Source: an uncultured virus (IMG/VR IMGVR_UViG_3300023179_000076) (lineage: Duplodnaviria > Heunggongvirae > Uroviricota > Caudoviricetes). From it: DNA of 20,000 bases. The notes beneath the pieces are model-generated. The model saw only the letters and a program-made list of their open reading frames with translations. It was not told the origin of the DNA and searched no databases. Every line of letters begins with the position of its first letter. Positions within the stretch are counted from its first letter, which is position 1. The position numbers and the translations under genes are program-made. The stretch covers positions 57,281-77,280 of the IMG/VR virus record IMGVR_UViG_3300023179_000076; one strand, given 5' to 3'. Below are positions 1 to 16,181 of this stretch, in pieces.

Positions 1-3000
1 CATAGGCTGCTTCTTTTTTATCTTTAAATCCAGGAACAGGAATCTGTGGAGATTTTTTAGGATCTGTAAAATACTTATTATTAATTGGTAATCCTAATCC
101 TTTAAGAAATTGAGGAGTATCAAGATCAGTACCTTTATAAGTTCCTTTATATAATTCTACAAAAAATGCTCTATAAGCATAATTTTTTAACCATTCTGGA
201 TTAGTTAATCTTTGATCAGGAACTGTTTTTGATAAATCTTTAGATAATTTAGTTTCATTATCATTAAGTTCTCTAATTATAGAGCGAACATCTTCTAGTT
301 TAGCTGGTTTAGCAGATTTGATCCCGATTGCTTTTTTACCAATATCATAAACTGCTCGTGCAATACCAACTTTTTTAGCATTTGTAAAAGCATCTCCTGT
401 TTCTAGTTTTATTTTAGGTTTGGTTTTAGCAGTATCTACAGCTTCATTCTTAAATACTTCTGCTGCTCTATCTTTTAGATTTTCTTTAAACTTTAGAGCA
501 TCGACCTCCATATCTGTTACTACAGACGGAACAATATACGGAACAAAATCTTGTAATACCGACTTATATTGATTGCCTAACTCAGATTCAACACTATCAA
601 AACCACCCATAGGATCAGCAAACATGTATTTGAAAGTTTTTTCGGCTCCTATTAATTTTCCAGTTTTATTATCATATTGATTAGTATTATTTTTTAATTG
701 ATTATTAAAATTTTGCCATTGATTTTCTGGAATAAATAACTTATCTTGTGACATTTCTCCAAAAGGAGATCTATTATTATCTTGTTTATCTATAACATAA
801 TAATTAATTGGTTCTCCAACAAATTGTCTTTTTGATGTATCGTATCTTGTGCCTCTTGTGATTTTTCTGTAAAAAAACCAAGGCGCTAAATCTTTTTCTT
901 TTCCGTATTCTATAGGTGGACTTAAAGTATCAAATAGTTTTTGAGGCTTGGGTCCGAATTGTGATTTACCAGATGATACAAAATTTTCATGAGTGATATC
1001 AGTAACATTAAAGTCTTTAGATAGCCACGGATACGAATCAATTCTATTTCCTGTTTTTAGATCTATCAAATCAATAAAATTATCTGTATCAGCTTTAAAA
1101 TCATCATTTATAGGCAACAAATCTGCCAAATTATTTCCATTATTCTTTGATTTTTCTAATTTAGTTTTGAATTTATCTATTTGATTTTGCCATTGATTTG
1201 CTCCAATATTATATAAAGTTAAAGGTAATAGTTTGCCCTTAGCTTTTTGTCCATCTAAAATATTTTCATCTTCATCCCCTAATTCTATAGAGAATAATTT
1301 TTTATTTGCAAAATCTTCTAGTAAACTTATAATTGTTTTTTTATTTTGAAATTTTGAAGATGCTACAAATTTTTCTTTATCCATATTTTCAATGACTCGT
1401 TCTAAATTAGCATAGTTTTGTTTTGTAATGGATAAGTCCGCAAAAGCCTGCGAATAGTCAGATAGTAAACCGCCTGAGCCTCCTGCCGATTTATAATCTG
1501 TAAGATTCTCAATTTTTACCCCACCTCCGGTATTTGAGAATACTCCTTGAGGCATTCGACTAAGATTAATTGGATATGCCGCTGACTCCGAAATTTTATC
1601 TTTGCTTAAAAGATATTTTTTAGTTGAATCACTAACAGCTAAATTGTCTATAGACGCTTCGGAATTCGGATACCCAAAAAAAGCTCGTGGTATTTTTATA
1701 TCAAGGACACTGTCTTTAATTCTTGGAATAAATTTATCTTGAGTGGTAATATCCTTATCCAATATATTTTTATCAATTAAATTTAATATATTTTTATAAA
1801 TAGGTTTATTTTTTTCTAATTGCTGTTTTGTTATCGGTTTTTCATCACTAGACAAAAATTTGGATGTATCTAATAACGATTTGATTATTCTTTCAGCTCC
1901 TAAACCATTATACATATAGGAGTTTTTATCATTAACATCTATACTATTACCAACATAAGAAGATCCGGGAACTATGTTAAAATTACTATTTGGTACTGGT
2001 TTTTTAATTATTTTTTGTGTAAACCAATTTCTCTCTGCTGGAAACTCAATATCTTGTGTATATTTTTTATATGCTCTGGCGGGAGTTAATAGAAGTTCTT
2101 TTTGGTCGTCTGCTTTTGGTTCTTTTTTAACTTCTGGATAAGATTTTGATGTTTGTAGCTCGGTTTTGTCTCGTTCTGATGATTGATATAATTTTTGTTT
2201 ATCTGGTGTTGTCCAATTCTCTCCAGGTACAATACCACCATCTTGTAGATAATTAATCTTTCCTCCTCGACTACTATTAATACTTTGTAATAATGGTAAA
2301 TTACGTCTAGTCGAAGCTCTATTAACAACAAATTCTCCAGGAGTTAACATAGCCGGTACGGTGTCCGTACCTTTTGGAGCAAAGTCTATGGATGCTCCAT
2401 TACTGGCATAAACGATACCTCCGGTAGCAAATCCTGATGCTTTTTGATTATTTGCTACTAAATTTTTTAAATTAATAATTTCTAATCTAATATCATTCAA
2501 TATTTTCTCTTCAAATGTAAATTTAGTTTCTTGAAGTGCAACTTTTAATTTTTCAGCAGCATTTTTTGCTGTATTTTCTGACATTAATTCTTTGATTTCG
2601 CCTAATCTAGCATTTGCGCTAGCTTGTAGGCTAACTCCTTGCTTATAAACACTAATAGCTTCTTGCATCTCCGGATCACCTTCCGGATTTCGTAAACTAT
2701 CCAAAACTTGTGCAAACATTGGGGTAACGCCCTGTCCACTTTCAAGCAACATACTTTCTAGTACATTAGCTCTTAATTCATTTTGTTTAGCTCCTTCTCC
2801 CAATAAGGGGGCTATCATATTAAAAGATTGTAAACTCTCTGATCTTTGTTCAGCGGTTGTTCCGCGATTTACAATACCTCTCATATTATTATCTAATCTG
2901 TTCAAAGAACTATTGAATTTATTAAGCTCTTCGGAATTTGATGTTACAATTTTTTCTATTAAATTAGCGCCTGACTGCCTTTTTGCTTGAATTTCTTGTA

Positions 3001-6000
3001 TTTTAGCTAATGCAGCACTAGCTATCTCACTACTTTCGGCTAGATTTTTAAGCGCATCAAAATTTTGTCGTAATGCTAAATTATTATTACGAAGTCTATC
3101 TTGCATAGTCTTAAATTCATCCTCTGCTGACGGTCCTTTTGCTGCGGCAGAATCCGAGGCTTGTTGTAATGTTTGTCTAGAATTTTCTAAATTTTGAATA
3201 TTTCTAGATATTCTAACAGGATCTGTTTCTCCTCCTGTTTGTCTTCGTGCTTTATCTAATGTTTGTGTCAAGGTTTCTCTTAAACTAATTTCTCTTCCAA
3301 ACACTTTAGATAATTCATTATTTGATGAAGTAATAATATCTGATGCTTTATTAAAAGCCTGATTTGCTTCTAACTGAAGATCTATCATAGTATTCATAGC
3401 ATTAGCATATTCATTTACTGCATTCTGATAGAATTCCATAGCCCTAACAGCACTTTCCTGTGCTCGTTTAGCAGCTTCTATTTGTTTTGTTAAGCCTGGA
3501 ACTTTTTCTGCTATTTCATCAAAATTAACTTGGTCTAAATCTCCTTTAGTGCTAATATCTTTGAGAGCGCTCTGAATTTGTTTACTAAAAGATGGAACTA
3601 AACTATCAGGAATTTGTAGATCTCTTAATTGTTTATCTAAATTAGATCTAATTCTAGCTAACACTTTTTCATTAGTTGCATTTGGATCTTCTTTACGTGT
3701 TCTATTAATTGTTTGTAAGATAGTATCTTCTAGTTGACCAGCACCAATATTAAGAATTGATGATATTGGTTGGCTCGCTGATCCAAAAAATGAACCAGCA
3801 AAATTTACAGCCTTATCTTGTTCTTCTTGGGAGTATACACCTCTGTTTTGTAGTACATTAATGGCTTTTAAGTTAACCTGTCCAGCTTTAGCATTGCCAT
3901 TTAAAGAAGCAGTAGCTAATTCAGCGCTATTAGATAGTTGTTGAATTTTGAAAGATGCCTTATTTATTGACATCTCCATATTAGAATATATTCTTTCCAT
4001 ACTATTAACAAACGTATTAACGCCCTTATTTAATTTTTCAAATTCTATTTCTCTAGCAACTCTAGCGTTATTTAATATGATTTGTTTTTCCGCTTCTCTT
4101 GCTATTATTCCATCTATTATTTTTTTTCTCTGGTCATCATCTAAATCTGCTCTAGCTTGGGTTTCTATAATTTGTTGTGCTACGATAGGATTTGATCTTG
4201 CGATAGTGTCAGCAAATTGTGAAACATTACCATTAGCGTCTTTTATAGAGGCTAATATTTCATCTTCTGATTTTTGACCACTTCTCATTTGCTGTTCAAA
4301 AACTCTAAATATATTATCTGCTAATGGCTTAAACATTGCTGATTGCTGTTGTGCCAATCCAGGGGCTAAAGCAAACATATTTGATTGTCTATTTAGAGCT
4401 GCTTGTTCATTAGCTGACCTATTGCTGAATATTTTAGTATCATACATGCTTGATCCACTCAATGCTTTAAAAATAGCATCTGGTATTCCAAGAGCAAGAG
4501 CATTAGCAGTCATTCCTATTGGAGCATTACCAAGTGTAGTAGATTGCAAATATGCTCCAACTCCTTGTTGTTGTAAAATCATGCTTCTTTGTGTTGCTTC
4601 TGATCCAGAAAAAGCCATTGCATCTATAATATTTGTCCAAAACATAGCCGGTACTTCCGTATCAATCTTTAGTCTTGCCATAGCAGCAGATATTCCAACA
4701 TTTATTTGATCTGTTATATCTTTTAGAATACTTAACTTAGTCATATCTTTACTAAATTCATCAAATAGTATAGATATTCTATCCAAGCTTGTTTGTAGTT
4801 TTTTACTAGCTAATTCTTTATCAAATTCTCGTGCCGCATTATAAGCATCTTTAAATGCTGCTGCTAAACTTATAGCGGCGGTTGCTGCTATTCCAAATGG
4901 TCCAGTTAATACTTTTGTTAGTCCAGGCAAAACTGATCCTGCTAATTTTCCTATTCCTGTACCACTAAATATAGTAGAAGTAGATAATTCTTTTAATGTT
5001 TGAAGACTTTGGCCAATACCAACCGCTAATGTTGAGGCTGTGGATGTTCCACTAGAAATTGCTGCTGCTGCCATTGCTGCGTTTCTGCTTTCTGTTGCAT
5101 CTATAAATTTAGCTATAACACTACCAGCAGCTCCTATAGCTAAACCAAATTTACTAAATTTTGCAGATATTTTATCGATTTCCTTAAATAGTTGTTGAGT
5201 TTCTCCTCTGGATTTTAATGCTTCTCCTGTGGCTCCTTTAATTTGTTCTGGTTGTATCTTATTTTGAGCAGCAATCATTGTCGCTGCTCTGGATACAATT
5301 GCTTCATCGGTTGATATATTCTTTATAGCATCAGTTAAACTTTGAACATTAAAAGCTTGTGTTGGAGTAGCCCCCTGTTTTAACTGATCCATAATATCTT
5401 TTAGTATTTTATTACTATCACCAGCAAAATTTTCTCCTAGAATATTTTCAAGAGTATCTCCTATACTTTCTTCTAGTTGTGAAATATCTATAGCTTTTCT
5501 CTCTTGTCCTTCTTGATTAGCATATTCTCCTTTTGCTTCTCTAGCGCTTATATTTTCAAGACTTTGTTTAGCATCAAATAATTGTTCTTGAAAACTATCT
5601 AAAGCTCTAGGAAGATTATTCTTAAATTGTTCAGCTAAATTTAAAGCCTGATCAGATAATGACTGAGAATATTCCTCAAGACTTTGTCCGGCTAGTCTTG
5701 CTCTCAAAGCCAAATAATCGTTCGCTGTGGCAGCAGCCTGGGCCTTATTTTTTGTTTCGGAAATTTGTGATATTATATCTTTTATATTGGTGCCTTGTCC
5801 TAGATCAGTCACATCAAATGCTTGTAGTCCTCTAGATCTAATAGTCTCGCTAAGTGCTTGTTGTCTTGCTTCTTGTGTGGACGGCACCTCTGGTCCTAGT
5901 ACATTGCTAAAATCTTGCTCCATAATATTGATTGATCTAGTATCAATTTCTTGTTGTAACCCAGATATATATTCTTCTGTGGATTGATTAGCTTCTTTAG

Positions 6001-9000
6001 CTCTTTGAGCTAATAGTTCTTGTAGTATTATTTGTTGTTGAGCAGCTTTATTGGCCTGTATGGTAGCATCAACAGCTTGAAATTTTAGCCTAGCTTCATC
6101 TTGTATCGCTTGCTTATCTTCTCTGGACGATGCTGCTCTGTATAATGGGTCATATTCTGATTTGATTCTTTCTTTTGACTCTATTCTTTGAGCAATTGCT
6201 TCGTTTTCTACTGCTGCTAGTTTTTGCTCGGCAGATTTGGGTACGGGAGGTGGGGTTGGTGATAAAGAAGATCTGTTTCTGCGACGAGGGCGTGGTGGAG
6301 TAACTGTATATGTTGTTGTTGATTTTGGAGGCTCTATAGGAGCAGGATTTTGATATGTATCTATTGCTTTATTTAGAGCATCAATATAATGAGTCATTAT
6401 AGCATCAACTTCTGCCGTTGTTTTTCCTTGTTTAGCCAAAGACACGACTACTGCGCGGTAGCTTTGCACCATCAAACTAGCATCGTCTAATGTTGCATCG
6501 ATAGTACTATGATATCTATCTAAAGTCTTTGCTAAAATCGGAGCCACTTTGTCTATCTCTTGCCAGGCTGAATAGCTATTACTTATCATTTGTTCTGTAG
6601 TTCTAAAGCTATCTACTAATAATATTGCACTTGTCTTTAGAAATCCAAGATCAGGCATGAGCGTCCGAATACCAGTTGTGTCTTTTCTTCCATAAGAAAC
6701 CTTATCACCGTCTTTAAATCTTCTTATTCCAACAATACCACCACTATTTAAACCTAGTGCTTTGGTAGCTTTTTCTCTTATTATAAAACTTCCTACTGGT
6801 AAATTTGTTGGTATACTATCACTAGTACCACTTCCCGGGCCTTTAAATATGCTAATCCCACCAGAGTTGAAACGACCCATACCATTTTTATCAGCTTGAT
6901 TCATTCGGCCTAGTGTTCCGTATCCAATACGTTTAGCAAGCTTAGGAGGCACGTAAGCCTCTCCATTACTTACCAATGCTGGAACAGTACCGCCACTAGC
7001 GAATCTTGGTAATGTTTGATAAAAGTCTGATTTTAATCCAGTATCCGCAAATATTTGTTCTAAAATTTTAGCAGCTGATGTGCTCCCCTCGGATGCTGCG
7101 CCAAGCAGAACCGGTATAGCTTCGTTTCTTCCAACATCAAAACTACCTCTACCCAAAGCCCTTAAAGAATTTCTGCTTGGATCAACTTTAGCTTTTTGTA
7201 AAGTTGTAAAACCAGATACCGCCATATTTTTCCCGATGTTTCTCTGTTCGCCAAGGGTTCTGTCTGTCAAATTTGGTAAAATATCGGTTAATTGATAATT
7301 TCCTGGACCGGTCCATTTTTTATTGTCAGGATTTTCATACCATTCTTGAATTGAATCTTTTTGTTTTTCTATAGAAGCAAATAATTTACCCATAATTTCT
7401 GGATAGTAATCATATAGATATCCTTGAATATCATGAAATGTTTCGTGTGCTAAGACGCCTTTATGTTTAGCACCTCCGACTTCTATTGTATCCGGAGTAT
7501 CATAAGTTTCGAATATTATATTTTGATCAATAAAATCTTTAAGTATAGAATATTCCTGCTTAGATATAAGCGGCTTGGCTTGCTCTATCTGATATCGCAT
7601 GGCCTTGAAAGGTAATGCTCCGGAGTAATAAGCCTGTTGTCCGACTGTGGAAATATTTATCTTTTCGCCTTGCCCTGTGGGGGTTTTCAATAAGCCATCT
7701 TCGGTCAACATTTCTTTTGGTAAAATACTTGATAAAACTTTTTTATATTGAGCTAGTAATTCTTCAGGAGATGGTTTGGATTTTTTCTTTCCAAAAAGTA
7801 ATTCTTTAATATCTGTTACTGGTCCACCTGTAGCAAATTTTTGTCTACTTATTCCAGCACCTCCCAATAAGTCATTTAGAGTACTATCCAAAATTCCACT
7901 TAAATTTTCATCTAATAATGGTAATTTTTGTATTAATGTTGTTAAAAATTCTTCTTTACCATTATCTTCATATTTATCTATAACATCTTGGCTTATTTTA
8001 CCTCTTAATAAAATATCATTAACTTTAGGATTCAGTGGTTTAAAAGCTTTGGCGGTTGTTGTAGAATTAGTTGCTGCCCAAGTTTTTCTTAATTCTGGAA
8101 TATATTCTGGATCACTATTAACATATTTTGCAAATGACTCTTTGGCTGATCCTATCATCAAGCTGCTTAGTCCACTAAGTTTATAACTTCTTCCATAAGC
8201 AACATCAGCACTATTATATCCGCTATTTCCTACTAGAGCATCAAAAGCATCTGCCACATCATCATTATTTCCATCAAATAAACTAGCAACTTTTGCTCTG
8301 TATGCTTCAAATGATTGAGCATTTTTAGTTCTAAGACTATTAAAAAGTTGATGAGTTAATTCATGATATAAAATACTATAGTCTTGACGTTGACTTGTAT
8401 TGAACGGATTAGTAGCTATACCAACGCTACCACGACCACTCTGATTTGCGGATTGTAATCTAGATTCTTTTGCAGCTTTAATAGCCGCATTGTTTTTATC
8501 AATAAGAGATCTTTGTTGTTTTTGTAAATCGTCTAATTCTGCTCTTAGTTTTTCTGCTAGAGCCGTATCATAGCTAAAACTACCATCTTCATATGTTGTA
8601 ACAGGAGTTTTAATTGTTTTTAATATTTGTTTCTTTTTTTCTTCTATTAGTTTAGTATATCCGAATAAATCTTGTTTATCTTGTTCAGTATAACCATATG
8701 GTGTCAGATCCACTCCTTGTAGTCCCCTGGTTCCTGGGCCAGAAGGATCCTTGCTAAATAATGCTGTAGCAGGATAATTAACACCAAAGTCTAATTGAGT
8801 TGGTATTGCAGATAAAAGATCGGTGGGTGGCAATCCTATAACTCGCGCAAATTGCCCCATTCTTTCAAAAACTGTATTTCTATTTATTTTATCCTTAAAC
8901 GAATTTATGAATAGTTCTCTAGTAAAAGGAGATTCATATCCTTTTTTCACAGCCTCCTCGTCCACAACCATTCTTTCATTACCAGGATACGTTGAAAAAA

Positions 9001-12000
9001 CCTTTTCCATTTGTTCTTGTTCTAATAATTTTTCCATTTCCCGAACATAAGCATTACTTATTCTTTTGGGGAATTTAAATGCTCCAGAACCAAATGTTGC
9101 TGTTCCTCCTTTAGCAAAGGCTTGTGGATTTTCTTTAAAGTATCTACTAAATTCTTCTCTGGCTTTTGAAAAACTGTCTCCGTCCAAAGTTCTTTTTACT
9201 TCTGTTTCGATATTAGGAGGTAATCCAAAAAGTTGAGCACCTCTGCCTAGTCCCTGTGGAAAATCAATCGCCCTATTTCTTTGTAAAGCATCAACATTTA
9301 TATTATAGCCCAATAATTGTGACAATGCCGCTTCTAACAAGCCTCCTTCAATATTAGATTGTCCAAATTTTTCTTCTGCTGATCCTTTGAGTTCTGGAAC
9401 TTCGCCATAACGAAAAGTACTTTTACCAGCAGCCATTGTTGCTCTAATATTTTCTTCATTATCATCGATTAATTTTTCAGCTCTTGCAACATCAGCGGCT
9501 TTAGCTTTTGCTATATTTGTTCCTAGTCCTTGACTAACTCCAGTAACATCTTGTTCTAAATATGGTAATCCAAATCTATTAAGAGTTGATGCTATGATAT
9601 CTGCCGTACTTTGAGGACGGGCCGTTAAGATACGACTATACATCCTAACATATCCGGGATTTTTTTGTTCTATACTAGCCAATCTTTTAGCTAGAGAGGT
9701 TGGTCTAGCTTGGGCTAGACTCTTCGTAACTTTTTCTCTATCCGAATAGGCCGGTAAATCTTCTTTACCATTTTCATCTAGCATTTTTGTTCCAAGAGCT
9801 AGTGTTTCATCAAAATCTATTGCTAATGGTTGAATTGGCCCCTGAATATTTCTATTACCTAATCCGCCTAATGCTGCCGTATCTTGAATATCTTCAGCAA
9901 ATTTTTGACGAGTAGCTCTATTAGCCTCTTGCATAGCTTCTATTTGCGGTAAAAAGCTAGATTGAAATCCTCTAACATAACCATAAATTTCTCTACCATC
10001 TTCCAACTTCCAGTCTGAAAAATCTTTATTATAATCTAATGGAAATAATCCGGCAATTGCAACTTTTCTCATAGCTGCTTCTTTTGCTTCTTTAGCAGCA
10101 TTTTGCTTTCCTGTCTTAGCCAACGCCCTATTTATATATCTAATAGCTTTTTCTATATTTTTACCAGCTTTAATATTACCAGCATTTAATATGGCGCCAG
10201 CCTCTCTATCTCCTGATCCTAATCCTAATATTTTTTTAACTCCACTAGCATCTCCAAAGCTAGACAATTGTTCTAAAATTACAGTTTCAATAGATTTTTT
10301 TTCTTCAGCAGCTATGCCCTGTACTGTTCCGCCAACCGCAAACCTTCGTCTTGCTGCTTTTTGATCACCATAAACTATGCGTTTACCAACCGGACCACGC
10401 GAAGCTTGTGTTGCTAATTTTCCTCTTTTTATAAACTCTCTAATAGTTTCTTCGTCTTTTAGTTCATCAAATCTCATAGTCTCAGTACCACCAATAGCAC
10501 CATACCTGGCTATTGGAAATCCATTTAAAACACCAACAGAAGACGATTTTTCTGAAAATAGCTTTTTAAATAATGGCAACTGTGATCTAGATGATTCTAA
10601 ATTAGCAATAATTTTATCAGCACGAGCCTCATCAATTATCATAGAATTAGAAATTGATTTTGATATAAGTTGTTCATCGCTTCCATAAAATTCACCCAAA
10701 AGAGTTCTTATGGTCGATAATTTAGATTGTAGTGCTTCTCCTCCACCAGCAAATTTTTGAATTAGTCCACCAGAATTTAAATTTCTAGCCCTAACTATAT
10801 CGGCCATAGGTATATTTAGATTATTAGCATTTTTTATTATTTCTTGATTAAATTTATCCTGATAATATTTATCAAAATTAGATTTTGTTTGATTTGGATT
10901 TTCAGGATAATAAATACTAGTATTTTTTAGTGGACCTTTACCTTTGTAATTAGATGTAAATAAATCTAAGCCATCCGTCCATGGTAACATATCTTGATCA
11001 TGTACAAGTCTTTTAACCAAAATAGTCTTATCGTCATTCTGTTTATTTCTGCTAAAATATTTAAAAACTCCTTTCTCAAATTTAGCATCTCCACTTTCAA
11101 AATCCAGTGGTGCAAAATGTTCTTCTACTATCTCTGGAAAAGTAGAATTGCTGTCAATAGAATATCCTGATAATAAACCATACTTTTTAATTAATAGTCT
11201 TTGAAACGCATTGCCTTTTGCCCAATTCGCTGGCGGTCTTGGAAGCGGCAAATCTAGCGTTTCCAAGTCTAGATTTTTTTTAGCAAATAAACTTTTTGGG
11301 GTGTCGTTATTAAGTATTTCATTATTTGCAGACATTCTTTTATATTGTTTAATATTAGATATATAGTCTTGTTTAATAAAACTTACTAAGTCATTAAAGT
11401 CATTTTGATTTAAAGTAATCGGTTCTGGTATTATTGTTGTCTCTACTTCGTCGGACTCTTGTATTCCTCCTATACCAAGTTTAATTCTTGTCCCGCCACT
11501 TACAGCCGTCAGATTATCAATAGAATCAATAACTTTAGACCCTTTAGCATATCTATTCATCCTTACCAAATTACCTCTTCCATACTTATTAACAGCTCTA
11601 TTGCTCATTACAACTTCGCCAGGCTCTAATAATGCTGGAACTTTGTCTCCTTTTCCGCTGCCAGGAACAGTTCCTCCTTTAGAGAAACCTAAAATACGAC
11701 CACCTCCACTAGCGGTAGTTGGTCCGCCGCCTCCTCCCAAATCTTTTCTATCTAAAGTAGCATCTAAATTAACCAAAGCGGCGTACACACTATTTAGCAT
11801 ACTATTATTATCTGATAATATATTGGTATTATCTTGTAGTTTTGAACTATTGAGAGTTAAACTATTATTAAGTATATTAAAATCGATACGAAGATTATTG
11901 ATACTTGTCCTTAGATCGTTAAATACTGTTGGGTCAATAGACACGCCTGCGGCACTAGTAGGGCTGCCAGCAGGAGCACCAGCAATATTCAGAGCAGATA

Positions 12001-13723
12001 AACTAGAAATTAAAAGATCTAATTTTCCAGCAACTTTGTCTAACGACGCACTATTTTGATCCAAATCTCTACTAACTTGTTCTGTTTTAGCGCCAACAAG
12101 ACTACTTCCAATATTTCTTCCAATAGAACCAACCACGCTTTGTGGTTGTTGTGCTCCTGGTCCTCCTTTAGGAACTTTTTTCAAACCACCAATAAATCCG
12201 CTAGTAAATTGACTTAATCCTCTAAAACTAGCCCCAGCTGCTAAAATAGCAAGTGAAGGTAAAACACCTTTAACAGCATCTGTAATCTTAATAAGACCAC
12301 TAGCAAATGTTAATGCTCCTCTAGCTAAAGTTTGAAAAGTATCACTTTGTCCCAAACTACGAATTAATGTTAAAAATTCTTCTCTCACTTTAGCTATTTG
12401 ATTGGCTAAACTTAATTGTGCTTTAGCAGCATCTGCTGCCAAACTACCCTGACCAGCCTGAGCCACTCTCAAAGCATCTTGTGCGGTAGCAAACTGTTGA
12501 ATCAATGGAATAACTTTGCCAATTTGACGAAAACCACCAAGCTCTTCAACTATTTGGCTAAATCTTATGTCTCTAGGATCTATACTACTTAATCCTTCGC
12601 TAAGTAACTGTACAGCCTTGTATGCACCAACAAATTTACCTTCGGCATCAGTCAGTGTAACACCAAATTCTTTGAGTGCTTCTATAGTACCTTGTCTTTG
12701 AATACGTGTAAAAATAGTTCTCAAACCTGTAGCGATTGTTTCGGCGCTTTCACGCGTTGTGGCACGAACACTAGTAAACACGGCTATAAATTCATTAAGA
12801 GCGTCTGCTCCTTCGCTAACTCCTTTACTCGCGGTTGCAAACACACCACCGGTTCGTTGTATAGCCGCAATAATATCGCTAGACTCAACAGCAAAAGCTG
12901 CTGCAACACTATTAACACTACCTAATGCTTTTTCTAAATCTTTTGCTGCTATGCCAAACTGTCTCATTAGAGCAATAGATCCTTCGACTGTTTGATTAAT
13001 ATCATCAAAACTAGGCGCTAATTCTGTTAATGCTAATGCTTTTAAGGCCTGTTCAGTTTCTCTAGCGCTTAATCCTGCCTGAGCTAATGTTGATGATACT
13101 TGAATTAAACTATCAGAACTAACACCAAGACCAGTTGATAGTCTTGTAATTTCATCTTGGAGTCCTTTTAATCCATCGGCGCTTTGACCAGTAACTTGCT
13201 GTAATCGCACTAATTCTTTATCAAATTCTATAAAGTTTTTCAATCCGCTATTAATTGCTCTATTAAGACTAAAAAATACTCCTGTTACAGCACTAAATGC
13301 AGCAAAACGACGAATGGCTAATGCGCTTTGACGACCAAATTCTTCCATCTCTGTTCGTGCTACAGAAATATTTTTTGCTGTTTTTGTTACTGTTGTTCCT
13401 AAATTACCAGAACTACTTATTGTTTTATTTATATTAGAAGATAATTTATTAGAAGAATTACTAATAGAATTTATACTTTGACCAAAATTTTTAATAGCAG
13501 ATGCTGCCGCAGTAGCGTTGGACGAAACAGAAGATAGGTCGGAACTTAGTTGTTGTAATGATTTACTAAGTTTTGTTGTATTATTAATTGCTGATGGATC
13601 AATATTAAATTTTATATCACCAGTAATTGTACCAAGTTGTTTTTTAACATCCGAAACTATTTGCCTAACATTTGATGGTCCACGCAAATTTAATTGTGCG
13701 GTTAAATTAAAGGCTTGTGCCAT
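1..13723 (-). CDS. Giant tape measure protein with embedded enzymatic modules (3'-truncated by window edge, >4574 aa)
   Basis: ATG at 13723 with AGGA upstream; reads MAQAFNLTAQLNLRGPSNVRQIVSDVKKQLG. Manual translation found no in-frame stop down to base 2 (...PGFKDKKEAAY), which explains its absence from the ORF track. N-terminal part has typical TMP core sequence (EFDKELVRLQQVTG, LAQAGLSARETEQAL, FAVESSDI, RESAETIATGLRTIFTRI, LKEFGVTLTDAEGKF, LGGFRQ). It lies downstream of tail tube and chaperone-like genes. Confidence 0.93.
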   Translation of the reverse strand, partial: MAQAFNLTAQLNLRGPSNVRQIVSDVKKQLGTITGDIKFNIDPSAINNTTKLSKSLQQLSSDLSSVSSNATAAASAIKNFGQSINSISNSSNKLSSNINKTISSSGNLGTTVTKTAKNISVARTEMEEFGRQSALAIRRFAAFSAVTGVFFSLNRAINSGLKNFIEFDKELVRLQQVTGQSADGLKGLQDEITRLSTGLGVSSDSLIQVSSTLAQAGLSARETEQALKALALTELAPSFDDINQTVEGSIALMRQFGIAAKDLEKALGSVNSVAAAFAVESSDIIAAIQRTGGVFATASKGVSEGADALNEFIAVFTSVRATTRESAETIATGLRTIFTRIQRQGTIEALKEFGVTLTDAEGKFVGAYKAVQLLSEGLSSIDPRDIRFSQIVEELGGFRQIGKVIPLIQQFATAQDALRVAQAGQGSLAADAAKAQLSLANQIAKVREEFLTLIRSLGQSDTFQTLARGALTFASGLIKITDAVKGVLPSLAILAAGASFRGLSQFTSGFIGGLKKVPKGGPGAQQPQSVVGSIGRNIGSSLVGAKTEQVSRDLDQNSASLDKVAGKLDLLISSLSALNIAGAPAGSPTSAAGVSIDPTVFNDLRTSINNLRIDFNILNNSLTLNSSKLQDNTNILSDNNSMLNSVYAALVNLDATLDRKDLGGGGGPTTASGGGRILGFSKGGTVPGSGKGDKVPALLEPGEVVMSNRAVNKYGRGNLVRMNRYAKGSKVIDSIDNLTAVSGGTRIKLGIGGIQESDEVETTIIPEPITLNQNDFNDLVSFIKQDYISNIKQYKRMSANNEILNNDTPKSLFAKKNLDLETLDLPLPRPPANWAKGNAFQRLLIKKYGLLSGYSIDSNSTFPEIVEEHFAPLDFESGDAKFEKGVFKYFSRNKQNDDKTILVKRLVHDQDMLPWTDGLDLFTSNYKGKGPLKNTSIYYPENPNQTKSNFDKYYQDKFNQEIIKNANNLNIPMADIVRARNLNSGGLIQKFAGGGEALQSKLSTIRTLLGEFYGSDEQLISKSISNSMIIDEARADKIIANLESSRSQLPLFKKLFSEKSSSVGVLNGFPIARYGAIGGTETMRFDELKDEETIREFIKRGKLATQASRGPVGKRIVYGDQKAARRRFAVGGTVQGIAAEEKKSIETVILEQLSSFGDASGVKKILGLGSGDREAGAILNAGNIKAGKNIEKAIRYINRALAKTGKQNAAKEAKEAAMRKVAIAGLFPLDYNKDFSDWKLEDGREIYGYVRGFQSSFLPQIEAMQEANRATRQKFAEDIQDTAALGGLGNRNIQGPIQPLAIDFDETLALGTKMLDENGKEDLPAYSDREKVTKSLAQARPTSLAKRLASIEQKNPGYVRMYSRILTARPQSTADIIASTLNRFGLPYLEQDVTGVSQGLGTNIAKAKAADVARAEKLIDDNEENIRATMAAGKSTFRYGEVPELKGSAEEKFGQSNIEGGLLEAALSQLLGYNINVDALQRNRAIDFPQGLGRGAQLFGLPPNIETEVKRTLDGDSFSKAREEFSRYFKENPQAFAKGGTATFGSGAFKFPKRISNAYVREMEKLLEQEQMEKVFSTYPGNERMVVDEEAVKKGYESPFTRELFINSFKDKINRNTVFERMGQFARVIGLPPTDLLSAIPTQLDFGVNYPATALFSKDPSGPGTRGLQGVDLTPYGYTEQDKQDLFGYTKLIEEKKKQILKTIKTPVTTYEDGSFSYDTALAEKLRAELDDLQKQQRSLIDKNNAAIKAAKESRLQSANQSGRGSVGIATNPFNTSQRQDYSILYHELTHQLFNSLRTKNAQSFEAYRAKVASLFDGNNDDVADAFDALVGNSGYNSADVAYGRSYKLSGLSSLMIGSAKESFAKYVNSDPEYIPELRKTWAATNSTTTAKAFKPLNPKVNDILLRGKISQDVIDKYEDNGKEEFLTTLIQKLPLLDENLSGILDSTLNDLLGGAGISRQKFATGGPVTDIKELLFGKKKSKPSPEELLAQYKKVLSSILPKEMLTEDGLLKTPTGQGEKINISTVGQQAYYSGALPFKAMRYQIEQAKPLISKQEYSILKDFIDQNIIFETYDTPDTIEVGGAKHKGVLAHETFHDIQGYLYDYYPEIMGKLFASIEKQKDSIQEWYENPDNKKWTGPGNYQLTDILPNLTDRTLGEQRNIGKNMAVSGFTTLQKAKVDPSRNSLRALGRGSFDVGRNEAIPVLLGAASEGSTSAAKILEQIFADTGLKSDFYQTLPRFASGGTVPALVSNGEAYVPPKLAKRIGYGTLGRMNQADKNGMGRFNSGGISIFKGPGSGTSDSIPTNLPVGSFIIREKATKALGLNSGGIVGIRRFKDGDKVSYGRKDTTGIRTLMPDLGFLKTSAILLVDSFRTTEQMISNSYSAWQEIDKVAPILAKTLDRYHSTIDATLDDASLMVQSYRAVVVSLAKQGKTTAEVDAIMTHYIDALNKAIDTYQNPAPIEPPKSTTTYTVTPPRPRRRNRSSLSPTPPPVPKSAEQKLAAVENEAIAQRIESKERIKSEYDPLYRAASSREDKQAIQDEARLKFQAVDATIQANKAAQQQIILQELLAQRAKEANQSTEEYISGLQQEIDTRSINIMEQDFSNVLGPEVPSTQEARQQALSETIRSRGLQAFDVTDLGQGTNIKDIISQISETKNKAQAAATANDYLALRARLAGQSLEEYSQSLSDQALNLAEQFKNNLPRALDSFQEQLFDAKQSLENISAREAKGEYANQEGQERKAIDISQLEESIGDTLENILGENFAGDSNKILKDIMDQLKQGATPTQAFNVQSLTDAIKNISTDEAIVSRAATMIAAQNKIQPEQIKGATGEALKSRGETQQLFKEIDKISAKFSKFGLAIGAAGSVIAKFIDATESRNAAMAAAAISSGTSTASTLAVGIGQSLQTLKELSTSTIFSGTGIGKLAGSVLPGLTKVLTGPFGIAATAAISLAAAFKDAYNAAREFDKELASKKLQTSLDRISILFDEFSKDMTKLSILKDITDQINVGISAAMARLKIDTEVPAMFWTNIIDAMAFSGSEATQRSMILQQQGVGAYLQSTTLGNAPIGMTANALALGIPDAIFKALSGSSMYDTKIFSNRSANEQAALNRQSNMFALAPGLAQQQSAMFKPLADNIFRVFEQQMRSGQKSEDEILASIKDANGNVSQFADTIARSNPIVAQQIIETQARADLDDDQRKKIIDGIIAREAEKQIILNNARVAREIEFEKLNKGVNTFVNSMERIYSNMEMSINKASFKIQQLSNSAELATASLNGNAKAGQVNLKAINVLQNRGVYSQEEQDKAVNFAGSFFGSASQPISSILNIGAGQLEDTILQTINRTRKEDPNATNEKVLARIRSNLDKQLRDLQIPDSLVPSFSKQIQSALKDISTKGDLDQVNFDEIAEKVPGLTKQIEAAKRAQESAVRAMEFYQNAVNEYANAMNTMIDLQLEANQAFNKASDIITSSNNELSKVFGREISLRETLTQTLDKARRQTGGETDPVRISRNIQNLENSRQTLQQASDSAAAKGPSAEDEFKTMQDRLRNNNLALRQNFDALKNLAESSEIASAALAKIQEIQAKRQSGANLIEKIVTSNSEELNKFNSSLNRLDNNMRGIVNRGTTAEQRSESLQSFNMIAPLLGEGAKQNELRANVLESMLLESGQGVTPMFAQVLDSLRNPEGDPEMQEAISVYKQGVSLQASANARLGEIKELMSENTAKNAAEKLKVALQETKFTFEEKILNDIRLEIINLKNLVANNQKASGFATGGIVYASNGASIDFAPKGTDTVPAMLTPGEFVVNRASTRRNLPLLQSINSSRGGKINYLQDGGIVPGENWTTPDKQKLYQSSERDKTELQTSKSYPEVKKEPKADDQKELLLTPARAYKKYTQDIEFPAERNWFTQKIIKKPVPNSNFNIVPGSSYVGNSIDVNDKNSYMYNGLGAERIIKSLLDTSKFLSSDEKPITKQQLEKNKPIYKNILNLIDKNILDKDITTQDKFIPRIKDSVLDIKIPRAFFGYPNSEASIDNLAVSDSTKKYLLSKDKISESAAYPINLSRMPQGVFSNTGGGVKIENLTDYKSAGGSGGLLSDYSQAFADLSITKQNYANLERVIENMDKEKFVASSKFQNKKTIISLLEDFANKKLFSIELGDEDENILDGQKAKGKLLPLTLYNIGANQWQNQIDKFKTKLEKSKNNGNNLADLLPINDDFKADTDNFIDLIDLKTGNRIDSYPWLSKDFNVTDITHENFVSSGKSQFGPKPQKLFDTLSPPIEYGKEKDLAPWFFYRKITRGTRYDTSKRQFVGEPINYYVIDKQDNNRSPFGEMSQDKLFIPENQWQNFNNQLKNNTNQYDNKTGKLIGAEKTFKYMFADPMGGFDSVESELGNQYKSVLQDFVPYIVPSVVTDMEVDALKFKENLKDRAAEVFKNEAVDTAKTKPKIKLETGDAFTNAKKVGIARAVYDIGKKAIGIKSAKPAKLEDVRSIIRELNDNETKLSKDLSKTVPDQRLTNPEWLKNYAYRAFFVELYKGTYKGTDLDTPQFLKGLGLPINNKYFTDPKKSPQIPVPGFKDKKEAAY
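4810..4829. repeat. 20-bp exact direct repeat, copy 1 (ctaattctttatcaaattct)
   Basis: Identical to 13210-13229; both copies encode EFDKEL in the TMP frame. Confidence 0.9.
7004..7822 (-). other. TMP module E: zincin-like metallopeptidase domain 2
   Basis: VLAHETFHDIQ (HETFH 7433-7447), with downstream RNEAIPV (E 7121-7123). Bounded by FATGG and FASGG. Confidence 0.7.
7838..9103 (-). other. TMP module D: zincin-like metallopeptidase domain 1
   Basis: ILYHELTHQL (HELTH 8351-8365) after a beta-strand (GSVGIA), with downstream EEF (7946-7954) as candidate third ligand. Bounded by FAKGG and FATGG. Confidence 0.7.
9119..9360 (-). other. TMP module C2: putative PD-(D/E)xK nuclease domain
   Basis: EGGLLEAAL (E at 9332-9334), AIDFP (D at 9263-9265), ETEVKRT (EVK at 9194-9202). 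Confidence 0.6.
9420..9830 (-). other. TMP module C1: HAD-superfamily phosphatase domain
   Basis: Motif I LAIDFDETL (9800-9826), motif II ILTARP (9614-9631), candidate motif III Lys in AKAKAA, motif IV LIDDNEENI (9446-9472), in canonical order. Confidence 0.8.
10781..11536 (-). other. TMP module A: putative PD-(D/E)xK restriction-endonuclease-fold domain
   Basis: KGNAFQRLL...PLDFESGDAKF resembles GxxFE...D...(D/E)xK, with Q in place of E. Bounded by YAKGS and LNSGG motifs. Confidence 0.4.
12150..13330 (-). other. TMP core domain (PhageMin_Tail/TP901-family-like) within giant ORF
   Basis: Ala/Gln/Leu-rich helical sequence with the TMP core motifs, followed by hydrophobic segment GVLPSLAILAAGASFRGLSQFTSGFIGGL. 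Boundaries approximate. Confidence 0.85.
13210..13229. repeat. 20-bp exact direct repeat, copy 2
   Basis: Identical to 4810-4829, 8400 bp away. Confidence 0.9.
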
Positions 13724-13745
13724 AAATCAAATTCCTAGATTAAGA

Positions 13746-13787
13746 TAAAAATATTCCCCGATTAGAAGAAACTCTAAACGGGGAATA
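13746..13787 (-). terminator. Putative intrinsic terminator/attenuator hairpin upstream of TMP
   Basis: Minus strand TATTCCCCG-T-TTAGA-gtttct-TCTAA-T-CGGGGAATA followed by TTTTT; 9-bp plus 5-bp stems. Confidence 0.7.
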
Positions 13788-13800
13788 ATATAACCCAATA

Positions 13801-13811
13801 TTATATACACT
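13801..13811 (-). promoter_or_regulatory. Candidate late-promoter motif (AGTGTATATAA)
   Basis: GTGTAT core plus A/T-rich tail in an intergenic gap; the same core occurs upstream of the tail tube gene. Confidence 0.4.
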
Positions 13812-13817
13812 AATTTA

Positions 13818-14726: not shown

Positions 14727-15010
14727 TTGTTATTCTCCTCTTTGAAATTAAGTTTATAAGTATATTTTGAACTAATAGTATTCTTTGATAAATATTTTTT
14801 AATGTCATCAATAGCAGCACGAGCTTGCTTATTTCCATTATTTAGTATACTGTTCCTAGTATATTCCCAAGTATCCCAAATTGGACTATCGTCAGGTTCT
14901 TTATCCCATAAATGTCCAAAATGATCTTCAAATCTTGCCAATGCTCCTATCATAGTTGTTTGAAATCTTTTGTATAGATTATCTAATAATTCTTGTTCAC
15001 TATTATTCAT
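14723..15010 (-). CDS. Hypothetical protein in tail module (95 aa)
   Basis: Tightly packed in operon (3-bp gap upstream, ATGA overlap downstream); protein-like sequence FQTTMIGALARFEDHFGHLW. Confidence 0.8.
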   Translation of the reverse strand: MNNSEQELLDNLYKRFQTTMIGALARFEDHFGHLWDKEPDDSPIWDTWEYTRNSILNNGNKQARAAIDDIKKYLSKNTISSKYTYKLNFKEENNK

Positions 15011-15013
15011 ATA

Positions 15014-16039: not shown

Positions 16040-16181
16040 CCGAACCTTCTGTATGAGAAGTCTTTAGTCGTTGTATCTCGTTTTCCTTTTCCGAAAGCTG
16101 CTGTCTCATTATCTCTAATACTTTTTGAGCGTTAGATATATCAACATACAGCTTGCCGATTATATTAAACAATTCGTCCAT
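16032..16181 (-). CDS. Small coiled-coil protein (49 aa), not in ORF track
   Basis: MDELFNIIGKLYVDISNAQKVLEIMRQQLSEKENEIQRLKTSHTEGSDE*. Fills the gap after the tube gene and overlaps the next start as ATGAATGA. Confidence 0.75.
   Translation of the reverse strand: MDELFNIIGKLYVDISNAQKVLEIMRQQLSEKENEIQRLKTSHTEGSDE

What the first reader, a model, noticed from the sequence alone, without database searches (positions are those of the whole stretch)
6704..11686. TMP as a polyprotein effector cassette: enzyme modules punctuated by FAxGG motifs
Seen: motifs FSKGG (11672-11686), YAKGS (11537-11551), LNSGG-LIQK-FAGGG (10739-10780), FAVGG (10328-10342), FAKGG (9104-9118), FATGG (7823-7837), FASGG (6989-7003), FNSGG (6857-6871), LNSGG-IVGIRR-FKDGD (6704-6751), often preceded by K/R. 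They fall at apparent domain boundaries and define modules of about 252 aa (nuclease-like), 132 aa (unknown), 403 aa (unknown + HAD + nuclease-like), 422 aa (HExxH) and 273 aa (HExxH). Established: TMPs are ejected into the host, some (lambda gpH, T5 pb2) are proteolytically processed, and phage 'polyvalent proteins' combine zincin peptidases, REase folds and phosphatases. Inference: the TMP is cut at the GG motifs to deliver a swappable set of host-takeover or anti-defence effectors before phage gene expression. This is the best candidate novel system in the window.
Basis: partly seen in the sequence, partly recalled or inferred. Interest (0 to 1): 0.92.

Follow-up and report, generated by a model that had tools for sequence, protein, structure and literature searches.

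The report
Cassette-built giant phage tape measure protein
The tail "ruler" protein of this uncultured phage is a 5,718-residue chain of swappable enzyme-like modules joined by a short conserved joint that phage lambda's ruler also carries next to its maturation cut, but whether the chain is cut at these joints remains untested.

Summary
All listed motifs lie at the stated coordinates on the minus strand, in one ORF of 5,718 aa (4,574 aa in the window) that is a TP901-type tape measure protein (TMP). F[ASN]xGG occurs 8 times against 0.33 expected.

The motifs are the end-caps of a ~50-65-aa "hook" joint (FAxGG...D-T-V-P-A-x-L-x-P-G-E-F-V...N...YxxGG). Ordinary TMPs carry it once near the C-terminus: lambda gpH 731-786, JBD30 gp46, Douge gp16.

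Related giant TMPs insert, delete, replace and reorder modules exactly at these caps, at protein and DNA level. Modules keep catalytic-type residues (HAD DxDxT/K/DD; a (D/E)xK signature; two unrelated HExxH modules). Free-standing homologs of module 5 end where FASGG begins, and an AlphaFold model places both caps outside its folded core.

Cleavage is not shown. Lambda gpH is cut in the Gly-rich stretch just before its joint, at an unknown site. P23-45's giant TMP stays full-length in virions.

This scan has reported the same architecture on at least 18 other genomes. My literature searches found no description of it. I rate it a new variant of a known kind.

The parts
2..13723 (-). Tape measure protein ORF: aa 1-4574 of 5,718. 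It continues past the window start to contig position 53847.
   Evidence: PF10145 E 4.9e-22; TIGR01760 85.3 bits vs cut-off 28.8; PHROG TMP families
11744..13723 (-). N-terminal TMP backbone, aa 1-660 (PhageMin_Tail / tape_meas_TP901 domain plus helical region)
   Evidence: conserved in most of 86 homologs
11528..11695 (-). Joint ('hook') 1, aa 677-732: FSKGG...KVPALLEPGEVV...RMNRYAKGS
   Evidence: hook HMM domain E 1.4e-20; phrog_35029; homolog HSP ends pile up at aa 620-680 and 720-740
10781..11527 (-). Module 1, aa 733-981. Unknown family with conserved H869, D874, D879-x-K881.
   Evidence: 6 sequences aligned; no Pfam, NCBIfam or PADLOC hit; Atlas best score 0.78, a lead only
10739..10780 (-). 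Abbreviated joint, a cap doublet 9 aa apart: LNSGGLIQKFAGGG (aa 982-995)
   Evidence: DNA similarity blocks to relatives start at aa 982-984; family consensus N.GG.[IV]Q[KR]FA.GG
10343..10738 (-). Module 2, aa 996-1127. Unknown; found only in close relatives.
   Evidence: cluster of 4 of 86 proteins
10328..10342 (-). Single cap FAVGG (aa 1128-1132)
   Evidence: 24 HSP ends in aa 1120-1139; DNA blocks start at aa 1128-1131
9119..10327 (-). Module 3, aa 1133-1535. HAD-type phosphatase signature (D1303-x-D1305-x-T1307, K1408, D1420-D1421) followed by a PD-(D/E)xK-like signature (D1487 ... E1508-x-K1510).
   Evidence: residues kept in 18/18 to 19/19 non-redundant rows; weak HAD hits to the DD motif, E 0.56-1.1; module cluster present in 66 of 86 proteins
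9104..9118 (-). Single cap FAKGG (aa 1536-1540), followed by a variable-length K/T/P-rich spacer in relatives
   Evidence: GG kept in 27/28 and 28/28 rows; 37 inserted alignment columns in aa 1520-1549, the largest hotspot; alignment view
7838..9103 (-). Module 4, aa 1541-1962. HExxH module (H1787-E1788-x-x-H1791).
   Evidence: 16/16 rows; cluster in 29 of 86 proteins; only one hit of 232-739 aa, P0088, itself flanked by joints
7823..7837 (-). Single cap FATGG (aa 1963-1967): left edge of a cassette-swap site
   Evidence: pLDDT<50 and no secondary structure in the model
7004..7822 (-). Module 5, aa 1968-2240. Zincin-like HExxHD+E module (H2093, E2094, H2097, D2098, E2201), unrelated to module 4.
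   Evidence: AlphaFold mean pLDDT 86.2, pTM 0.83; invariant residues in 15 rows; VIA Z 6.4-5.6 to a metal-dependent hydrolase, PPEP-2/3 and lethal factor; free-standing homologs; hhalign M4 vs M5 probability 0.3%
6704..7003 (-). Double joint 'U', aa 2241-2340 (hooks 2 and 3 plus the terminal doublet LNSGGIVGIRRFKDGD). It is the most conserved island of the family.
   Evidence: alignment A1, 22 rows, mean column identity 65%; hook HMM E 3.7e-14 and 3.3e-14; 2,603 cluster representatives with E<=0.001
2441..6703 (-). Helical backbone, aa 2341-3761. Rich in helix formers, poor in Gly/Pro and aromatics, with a hydrophobic peak near aa 2947. Probably the length-setting and channel-forming tape.
   Evidence: composition profile; conserved in many homologs; inference for function
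2240..2440 (-). Joint 4, aa 3762-3828: FATGG...TDTVPAMLTPGEFVVNR...SINSSRGG...LQDGG
   Evidence: hook HMM E 5.5e-24; used as query
2..2239 (-). Second cargo zone, aa 3829-4574 in the window (runs to aa ~4780). Variable between relatives.
   Evidence: map; no family hits

Best explanation
This is the tail tape measure protein of an uncultured tailed phage. It is built from a conserved backbone plus cargo zones. The backbone is an N-terminal TP901-type domain, a long helical tape and a C-terminal end.

The FAxGG motifs are not isolated signals. They are the end-caps of a conserved ~50-65-residue joint: FAxGG-x-V ... G-x-x-D-(T/S)-(V/I)-P-A-x-L-x-P-G-E-(F/Y)-V ... L-x-x-(I/M)-N ... (Y/F)-x-x-G-G-x-V. 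Ordinary TMPs have one or two joints 50-120 residues before the C-terminus. Lambda gpH has one at aa 731-786. In giant TMPs the full joint, or only its caps, separates independently folding modules.

Shown here: the caps lie in linker-like, indel-rich sequence at module edges. Phages insert, delete, replace and reorder modules exactly there. The modules keep catalytic-type residues.

Inferred: because TMPs fill the tail lumen and leave the tail ahead of the DNA, the modules are carried into the host envelope or cytoplasm as ready-made enzymes. The joints act as standard connectors that let any module be plugged in without disturbing tail assembly.

I put some maturation cleavage at or beside the full joints, as in lambda, at about 0.4. 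I put cutting at every FAxGG at about 0.15.
For: TMP identity.

Motif enrichment.

Caps belong to a repeat unit. Six units in this protein were aligned and confirmed by HMM. The consensus comes from 49 diverse units, with GG kept in 47/47 and 46/47, D in 40/41 and N in 44/44.

The same unit occurs in solved TMPs: Douge gp16 964-1027 and 1411-1457 (E 4.2e-16), JBD30 gp46 1018-1067 (2.9e-6), lambda gpH 732-785 (6e-4). Lambda was re-checked at 731-786, E 3.4e-9.

Breadth: 2,603 cluster representatives at E<=0.001. A pattern scan gave 104 confirmed matches and 79 loci from many phyla. In those loci 0.8-1.6-kaa TMPs have one joint 50-120 aa from the C-terminus.

Modularity: 48% of 410 HSP ends in aa 600-2400 lie within 15 aa of a cap, against 12% of the length. 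Module order is shuffled in some relatives. One site is empty, filled by two different single modules, or filled by two modules in four relatives. Nucleotide similarity blocks end at aa 728-732, 982-984, 1128-1131, 1962-1974, 2241-2248 and 2339-2341, with block-specific identities from 67 to 99%. Cap-bounded segments fall into 164 clusters, 101 of them singletons. The cargo zone is 292-2,585 aa with 1-8 modules in 106 of 214 proteins.

Selection at protein level: codons differ among the 12 caps.

Autonomy of modules: of 14 free-standing M5 homologs aligned, 12 end within 3 residues of '...LPR|F', where FASGG starts. The AlphaFold core spans model residues ~31-288, with both caps at or outside its edges.

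Catalytic residues. An ART domain lies between junction doublets in P0010.

Precedents, from passages read: the T5 pb2 enzymatic C-terminal piece is cut off and stays in the tail (PMC10038345). The P23-45 TMP-fused virion RNA polymerase transcribes pre-early genes (PMC10770324).
Against: No virion, proteomic or expression data exist for this phage or any relative. Delivery of the modules is therefore inferred from what TMPs do in T5, lambda and P23-45.

Folded 130-420-aa modules in three or six copies are hard to fit into a ~4-nm tail lumen. They would have to travel unfolded or be removed, and neither was tested.

Enzyme assignments rest on motifs. Pfam, NCBIfam, PADLOC and PDB sequence searches gave no significant hit for any module. 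Foldseek found nothing at E<=0.001 for M5, and the VIA Z values of 5.6-6.4 are in the range the tool calls common.

The low pLDDT of the flanks is partly expected, because the free-standing homologs in the alignment do not cover them.

HSP-end counts come from related proteins and are not independent events.
Confidence: 0.7

Rival explanations
1. The TMP is a true polyprotein, cut at each FAxGG/GG motif during tail maturation or after ejection. The modules are released as separate effectors before phage genes are expressed.
For: [quoted passage not shown] In lambda the Gly-rich stretch aa 695-722 directly precedes FATGG at 733. A cut at 710-725 gives 14.6-13.4 kDa and a cut before F733 gives 12.7 kDa.

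T5 pb2 is cut after R1127, which separates a metallopeptidase domain (PMC10038345, passages). TP901-1 Tal is processed at a Gly-rich motif before its catalytic domain, and a Gly>Arg mutant is not processed (PMC11409707, passages).

K/R stands at -1 of 340 of 680 caps. Free-standing M5 homologs end exactly at the cap. Caps lie in stretches without predicted structure and next to variable spacers.
Against: No cleavage data exist. Lambda and T5 show one cut each, not a series.

No protease accompanies the joints. The HExxH modules occur in 29 of 86 (M4 type) and 7 of 86 (M5 type; 11 by BLAST). Joints occur in 86 of 86 and in lambda, which has no peptidase in gpH.

No relative splits the gene at a joint among about 45 distinct loci.

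The invariant residues of the joint are mostly Gly, Pro and hydrophobic. That fits a structural turn better than a catalytic centre.
Confidence: 0.2
2. The joints are docking elements, not cut sites. Each hook binds the baseplate hub, the tube wall or the tail assembly chaperone. This keeps a very long, cargo-laden chain in register and later anchors it in the opened hub. The caps are only the turns that close each hook.
For: JBD30 gp46 residues 1022-1066 coincide with the joint match 1018-1067. [quoted passage not shown] In T5 the 43 C-terminal residues of pb2* sit in a crevice between hub subunits (PMC10038345, passages).

Ordinary TMPs carry the joint at a fixed distance from the C-terminus. 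The Gly residues are invariant.
Against: The joint profile did not match T5 pb2 among PDB chains at E<=10, so homology with the T5 element is not shown.

One hub cannot bind six hooks per chain at once.
Confidence: 0.25
3. The motif is a recombination linker acting at DNA level: short shared nucleotide stretches that promote cassette exchange, without a role in the protein.
For: Breakpoints of nucleotide similarity fall on the caps and joints. The full joints are 70-90% identical between relatives at DNA level and could support homologous exchange.
Against: The 12 caps of this gene use different codons for F, A and G, and a cap is only 15 nt. The amino-acid pattern is kept across phyla and across TMP families PF10145 and PF20155, and in lambda.
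Confidence: 0.03

Closest known systems
Phage lambda tape measure gpH and its maturation to gpH* plus gpHC
   Same: It is a TMP. It carries one copy of the same joint with both caps (FATGG at 733, YATGG at 778; hook HMM 731-786, E 3.4e-9; PDB profile hit 8iyk_H). The joint lies about 70 aa before the C-terminus, as does the last joint here. The protein is cut in the Gly-rich stretch that abuts the joint (PMC12617516, passages).
   Different: 853 aa, one joint, no inserted modules and no known enzyme activity. The cut site and its catalyst are unknown, so it cannot yet be said that the cut is at the motif.
Thermus phage P23-45 gp96 (5,002-aa TMP fused to a virion RNA polymerase)
   Same: A giant TMP that carries a working enzyme into the host, where it transcribes pre-early genes (PMC10770324, listing abstract and passages).
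   Different: I fetched gp96 and found no joint (HMM E 0.035, domain score negative) and FxxGG 1 vs 0.86 expected. The cargo is N-terminal and single, and the protein is full-length in virions.
Phage T5 pb2 (pb2* plus pb2C)
   Same: A TMP whose C-terminal metallopeptidase piece is cut off during tail assembly and kept in the tail tip. The stretch before the cut binds the hub after opening (PMC10038345, passages).
   Different: One cut after R1127. The joint profile gave no match to pb2 at E<=10. There is one small enzyme, not a cassette series.
Polyvalent proteins of phages and conjugative elements (Iyer et al. 2017, PMC5512222)
   Same: Long mosaic polypeptides combine zincin-like peptidases, nucleases, ADP-ribosyltransferases and other enzymes. 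They are proposed to be injected and perhaps self-processed (passages read).
   Different: 'Tape measure' occurs 0 times in that paper's main text. Those proteins are head-packaged or conjugation-transferred. No Pfam LPD or other polyvalent-protein family matched here. The only hint is an Atlas cluster with LPD23 on 18% of its members, score 0.89. No joint punctuation is described there.
TMPs with embedded cell-wall hydrolases (mycobacteriophages; prophage TMPs)
   Same: Douge gp16 has two joints about 385 aa apart. An Acidipropionibacterium prophage TMP has a joint at 925-996 followed by an SLT domain at 1249-1319. So enzyme inserts beside joints also occur in ordinary TMPs.
   Different: They have one or two inserts of known muralytic type. 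That mycobacteriophage TMPs carry Rpf- or M23-like motifs is recalled (Piuri and Hatfull 2006) and was not checked here.
TP901-1/Tuc2009 tail-associated lysin Tal
   Same: A Gly-rich motif (NGGGNSGGGD) at a domain junction of a tail protein is proteolytically processed, removing an enzymatic domain (PMC11409707, passages).
   Different: It is a different protein (hub/fibre, not TMP) with a different motif and a single site.

Membership tests
Tail length tape measure protein, TP901 type (TIGR01760 / PF10145) | N-terminal family domain above the curated cut-off | tested here: met
   PF10145 79.2 bits vs 33.2; TIGR01760 85.3 bits vs 28.8
Tail length tape measure protein, TP901 type (TIGR01760 / PF10145) | Long helical region and position in a tail gene block | tested here: inconclusive
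   Helix-former-rich, Gly/Pro-poor region at aa 2400-3750. The same order of ~300-, ~350- and ~375-aa ORFs precedes the TMP in about 45 relatives, but these neighbours match no PHROG.
Lambda-type TMP joint ('hook'; no curated family found) | Core G-x-x-D-(T/S)-(V/I)-P-A-x-L-x-P-G-E-(F/Y)-V flanked by aromatic-x-x-G-G caps | tested here: met
   Six units in this protein, HMM E 1e-14 to 1e-24. The same profile hits lambda, JBD30 and Douge TMPs. The four junctions at aa 991, 1128, 1536 and 1963 carry caps only.
Lambda-type TMP joint ('hook'; no curated family found) | One copy 50-120 aa before the C-terminus | tested here: met
   The last unit is at aa 5493-5559 of 5,718, outside the window. The same placement is seen in ordinary TMPs and lambda.
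Viral polyprotein with defined cleavage sites | Mature products with termini at the motif | not testable with these tools
   No proteomic data. Indirect only: free-standing M5 homologs end at the cap.
Viral polyprotein with defined cleavage sites | A cognate protease present wherever the sites are present | tested here: not met
   HExxH modules are in 29 and 7 of 86 proteins and joints in 86 of 86. No protease family was found among 49 other ORFs of the contig.
Polyvalent proteins (Iyer et al. 2017) | Several effector-type domains in one polypeptide with mosaic variation between relatives | tested here: met
   (domains assigned from motifs, one from Pfam in a relative)
Polyvalent proteins (Iyer et al. 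2017) | Match to the families that define the class (MPTase, LPD domains and others) | tested here: not met
   No Pfam hit at E<=10 for any module; alignment members likewise
HAD superfamily (module 3, N-terminal half) | Motifs I DxDxT, III K, IV DD conserved | tested here: met
   D1303, D1305, T1307, K1408, D1420, D1421 kept in 18/18 to 19/19 rows
HAD superfamily (module 3, N-terminal half) | Significant profile or fold match | tested here: inconclusive
   PDB profile hits to HAD proteins over the DD motif only, E 0.56-1.1. No Pfam hit.
Zincin metallopeptidases (module 5) | HExxH plus a downstream Glu, invariant | tested here: met
   H2093, E2094, H2097, D2098, E2201 invariant in 15 rows. HExxH lies on helix 136-152 of the model.
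Zincin metallopeptidases (module 5) | Zincin fold | tested here: inconclusive
   VIA Z 6.4 (3dl1_A metal-dependent hydrolase, 147 aligned, rmsd 4.3), 6.2 and 6.0 (PPEP-2 and PPEP-3), 5.7 and 5.6 (lethal factor). All are below the Z of 8 that the tool treats as clear. Foldseek found nothing at E<=0.001.

The most novel reading that the evidence does not exclude
The ~60-residue joint is a self-contained processing element shared by lambda-type tape measure proteins. Once the tail is assembled, or once the chain is ejected, the chain breaks at or beside the aromatic-x-x-Gly-Gly cap, either by self-cleavage or through a ubiquitous host protease. Lambda uses one such element to make gpH* and gpHC. 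Giant TMPs use up to eleven to turn one gene into a set of separately active enzymes, drawn from an open pool of more than 160 module families. If so, this family would be a phage-wide, plug-and-play system for injecting proteins, and the motif would name the long-unknown gpH cut site.
Probability: 0.2. Interest if true: 0.85.

Novelty: new variant of a known kind. Interest (0 to 1): 0.62.

Why it matters
Tape measure proteins are known as rulers and channel formers, with a few carrying a single enzyme. This TMP takes 22% of a 77-kb contig. It works as a rack for exchangeable enzyme modules, and the exchange points are a standard joint kept from lambda to uncultured lake phages.

Three things follow.
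- It gives a rule for parsing thousands of unannotated giant phage proteins into functional units (2,603 cluster representatives match the joint).
- It supplies a large pool of candidate injected enzymes, almost all without known families.
- It ties the joint to an open question in lambda biology: where and how gpH is cut. That question can be tested directly by mutating two short motifs.

Tried and rejected
Only the module-5 job (A4) ran. The fold of modules 1-4 and of the joint itself is therefore untested.

Complex prediction (a trimer of the double joint) was not available, and nothing was folded.

Pfam, NCBIfam, PADLOC and PDB sequence searches on single modules and on alignments gave no significant hit. 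Foldseek against the PDB found no match at E<=0.001.

ESM Atlas gave M1 a best score of 0.78. M5 scored 0.92 to unnamed clusters and 0.89 to a cluster with LPD23 on 18% of members. These are leads only.

Cultured relatives were not found. Megablast of the window, tblastn of the double joint (one weak hit, Acidovorax phage AP1, E 6e-4) and tblastn of modules 3-5 plus joint found nothing usable in 50,697 phage records.

Module 4 as a free-standing protein: only P0088, which is itself a joint-flanked fragment. In IMG/VR, module-5 relatives occur only inside giant TMPs.

Other tests:
- hhalign of M4 vs M5 and M1 vs M3 C-half gave probability 0.3% each, so the two HExxH modules are not related.
- A search for TMP genes split at joints found none; the ORFs after short TMPs are the next tail gene.
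- No joints occur in any other ORF of the contig.
- No tRNA lies in the window.
- A genome-contig scan with alignment A3 failed for lack of a conserved stretch. It was repeated with one joint.

Literature searches for a prior description of joint-punctuated cargo TMPs found none. Subscription-only papers are outside that library.

Full report
**What is there.** The window is the last 20 kb of a 77,280-bp contig. One minus-strand ORF fills window 2..13723 and runs off its edge. In the contig it spans 53847-71003 and encodes 5,718 aa, 22% of the contig. Its N-terminus matches PF10145 (aa 189-384, E 4.9e-22), TIGR01760 (85.3 bits against a cut-off of 28.8) and several PHROG tape-measure families. 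[quoted passage not shown] The rest of the contig carries replication genes and large tail-region ORFs without family matches.

Against 2,000 shuffles of the protein, F[ASN]xGG occurs 8 times (0.33 expected, maximum 4) and FxxGG 8 times (1.35 expected). The 86 homologs found with aa 660-2400 hold 680 FxxGG against 113 expected. A further 128 cluster representatives hold 798 against 131.

**What the motif is.** It is the cap of a repeat unit. Six units in this protein align as FAxGG-x-V ... G-x-x-D-T-V-P-A-M-L-T-P-G-E-F-V-x-N ... L-x-x-I-N ... Y-x-x-G-G. In 49 diverse units the two cap glycines are kept in 47/47 and 46/47, the Asp in 40/41 and the Asn in 44/44.
- It also holds four abbreviated junctions that keep only caps: a doublet nine residues apart at aa 982-995, and single caps at 1128, 1536 and 1963.
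- The family consensus of a doublet is N-x-G-G-x-[IV]-Q-[KR]-F-A-x-G-G.
- No Pfam or NCBIfam model covers the unit. One PHROG of unknown function does.

**The unit is old and widespread.**
- A profile of 49 units hits the TMPs of mycobacteriophage Douge (two copies, E 4.2e-16), Pseudomonas phage JBD30 (aa 1018-1067, E 2.9e-6) and lambda (8iyk_H, aa 732-785, E 6e-4) among all PDB chains. I found this before reading earlier notes of the scan.
- With the lambda record in hand, the unit is aa 731-786 of 853 (E 3.4e-9), capped by FATGG at 733 and YATGG at 778.
- A profile of the double unit finds 2,603 cluster representatives at E<=0.001 among 1.84 billion. The best 150 are mostly 2,000-7,900 aa, with up to eight matched stretches.
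- A pattern scan of one genome per prokaryotic species gave 104 confirmed matches (79 loci kept) from Verrucomicrobia, Chloroflexi, Bacteroidia, Planctomycetes, Actinobacteria, Firmicutes, Proteobacteria and others.
- In those loci, TMPs of 800-1,600 aa (PF10145 or PF20155) have one unit 50-120 aa before the C-terminus. About 1,350-aa Burkholderiales TMPs have two. TMPs of 2,000-2,500 aa have three. One prophage TMP has a unit followed by an SLT lysozyme domain.
- In this contig the unit occurs only in the TMP.

**Modules are exchanged at the caps.**
- A BLAST map of the protein against 85 homologs is a mosaic, with conserved islands at the joints.
- Of 410 internal HSP ends in aa 600-2400, 48% lie within 15 aa of a cap, against 12% of the length. 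These ends come from related proteins and are not independent.
- Order is not fixed. In P0007 the module-3 homolog lies about 1,300 aa downstream of the module-4 homolog.
- At the site between FATGG and FASGG, four close relatives show four states. This phage has module 5. P0003 has an unrelated ~190-aa module. P0004 has nothing (...LSVGGLISKLKGGG...). P0005 has two modules with a cap between them.
- Nucleotide similarity to relatives comes in blocks that end at aa 728-732, 982-984, 1128-1131, 1962-1974, 2241-2248 and 2339-2341. Identities differ by block, for example 99, 84, 96, 90 and 77% against one contig.
- Cutting 86 proteins at caps gives 526 segments of 90-900 aa in 164 clusters, 101 of them singletons, with narrow length ranges inside clusters.
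- In 106 of 214 proteins with an N-terminal joint and a separate double joint, the zone between holds 1-8 modules over 292-2,585 aa. Here it holds five over 1,509 aa.
- The caps of this gene use different codons, so the pattern is kept at protein level.

**Caps lie between folds, not inside them.**
- In a 40-row alignment of modules 3+4, the left module always ends ...EVKRT...RYF-ENP-x-x-[FY]-x-x-G-G whatever follows (module 4, a joint, or something else). The stretch after GG is a K/T/P-rich spacer of variable length.
- Aa 1520-1549 holds 37 inserted columns, the largest hotspot of the alignment.
- Module 5 has 22 homologs of 223-414 aa. Of 14 aligned, 12 end within three residues of ...LPR|F, exactly where FASGG begins here. 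Their conserved core starts 23 aa after FATGG, and several have hydrophobic N-terminal extensions.
- An AlphaFold model of aa 1955-2260 built on that alignment has mean pLDDT 86.2 and pTM 0.83. FATGG lies in a pLDDT<50 stretch without secondary structure. In FASGG, F-A end the confident core and G-G start the pLDDT<50 tail.
- The flanks have no alignment depth, which lowers their pLDDT anyway.

**What the modules are.**
- Module 3 keeps D1303-x-D1305-x-T1307, K1408 and D1420-D1421 (the HAD pattern), then D1487 ... (D/E)1508-x-K1510, in 18/18 to 19/19 non-redundant rows. A PDB profile search touches HAD proteins only over the DD motif, at E 0.56-1.1.
- Module 4 keeps H1787-E-x-x-H1791 in 16/16 rows.
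- Module 5 keeps H2093-E-x-x-H-D2098 and E2201. Its best structural neighbours over long alignments are a putative metal-dependent hydrolase (Z 6.4), Pro-Pro endopeptidases (Z 6.2 and 6.0) and anthrax lethal factor (Z 5.7 and 5.6). These are suggestive of a zincin but below the level the tool treats as clear. Foldseek found nothing.
- Modules 4 and 5 are unrelated. Modules 1 and 2 remain unknown.
- In relatives, Pfam finds an ADP-ribosyltransferase domain between two junction doublets (P0010) and a lysozyme-like domain (P0087).
- No module matched Pfam, NCBIfam or PADLOC.

**Is the chain cut?** Nothing here shows it.

For cutting:
[quoted passage not shown] The site and the catalyst are unknown (PMC12617516, passages).
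- In lambda the Gly-rich stretch 695-722 abuts FATGG. A cut at 710-725 would give 14.6-13.4 kDa, and a cut before F733 would give 12.7 kDa.
- T5 pb2 is cut after R1127, which frees a metallopeptidase piece that stays in the tail (PMC10038345, passages).
- TP901-1 Tal is processed at a Gly-rich junction (PMC11409707, passages).
- Free-standing module-5 proteins end at the cap.

Against cutting:
- P23-45's 5,002-aa TMP with its RNA polymerase is full-length in virions (PMC10770324, passages). It has no joints.
- No protease travels with the joints.
- No relative splits the gene at a joint.
- The joint's invariant residues look structural.
- The JBD30 authors read their copy as a hook that anchors the TMP in the baseplate (PMC11445458, section 16).

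**Verdict.** This is a cassette-built, cargo-carrying TMP whose FAxGG motifs are caps of a lambda-type joint. Modularity and boundaries are shown. Delivery of the modules is inferred from TMP biology. Cutting is open: about 0.4 for some processing at full joints and about 0.15 for every cap.

The polyvalent-protein paper does not mention tape measures, and my four searches found no description of this architecture. Earlier agents of this scan reported the same architecture on at least 18 other genomes, and all left cutting untested.

**Papers: what I saw.**
- Passages only: PMC13033339, PMC10038345, PMC5512222, PMC7824862, PMC11101478, PMC12617516, PMC5099701, PMC13585406, PMC11409707.
- PMC11445458: passages plus section 16.
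- PMC10770324: listing abstract plus passages.
- Hendrix and Casjens 1974 and Tsui and Hendrix 1983: known only as cited in those papers.

Noticed in passing
window 13818-14726 (-), about 13940-14105: The 302-aa ORF directly upstream of the TMP, in the usual place of a tail assembly chaperone, holds a run of short repeats (GRLIDREG RLIDESG RFIDEEG NFVDKFG NKVDKDG) and an acidic, P/S/T-rich tail. It matches no PHROG. An ORF of about 300 aa sits in the same position in about 45 relatives.
   Followed up: partly
window 13818-19498 (-): All seven ORFs upstream of the TMP (302, 95, 341, 373, 308, 218 and 177 aa), presumably tail and connector genes, have no PHROG match at E<=0.001.
   Followed up: partly
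window 7919-9766 (aa 1320-1931 of the TMP): The nearly identical database protein P0002 differs from this TMP at 12 positions, all inside modules 3 and 4. No difference lies in the other ~5,100 residues.
   Followed up: no
L107 (contig 11080-16568): The DNA polymerase gene appears in three pieces (432, 294 and 537 aa). They are separated by an endonuclease-like ORF and an exonuclease-subunit-like ORF. Several HNH or homing endonuclease ORFs lie elsewhere in the contig.
   Followed up: no
L108/L109 (contig 25644-40483): Two further giant ORFs downstream of the tail genes (2,704 and 2,242 aa) have no PHROG match and no joints. The 2,250-aa reading frame holds three FxxGG.
   Followed up: no
P0221-P0232, P0218, P0234 (free-standing module-5 homologs): Many free-standing relatives of module 5 carry a hydrophobic, membrane-anchor-like N-terminal extension. 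This hints that the HExxH family works at the membrane or in the envelope. Their genomic context could not be read because the contigs are short.
   Followed up: partly
L110, L112, L116, L127 (genome contigs): TMPs of 2,000-2,500 aa in Verrucomicrobiales, SAR202 and Micavibrio assemblies show a minimal version of the design. There is a joint at ~455, a joint at ~770 and a joint ~90 aa before the C-terminus, with one 250-330-aa insert between the first two.
   Followed up: partly
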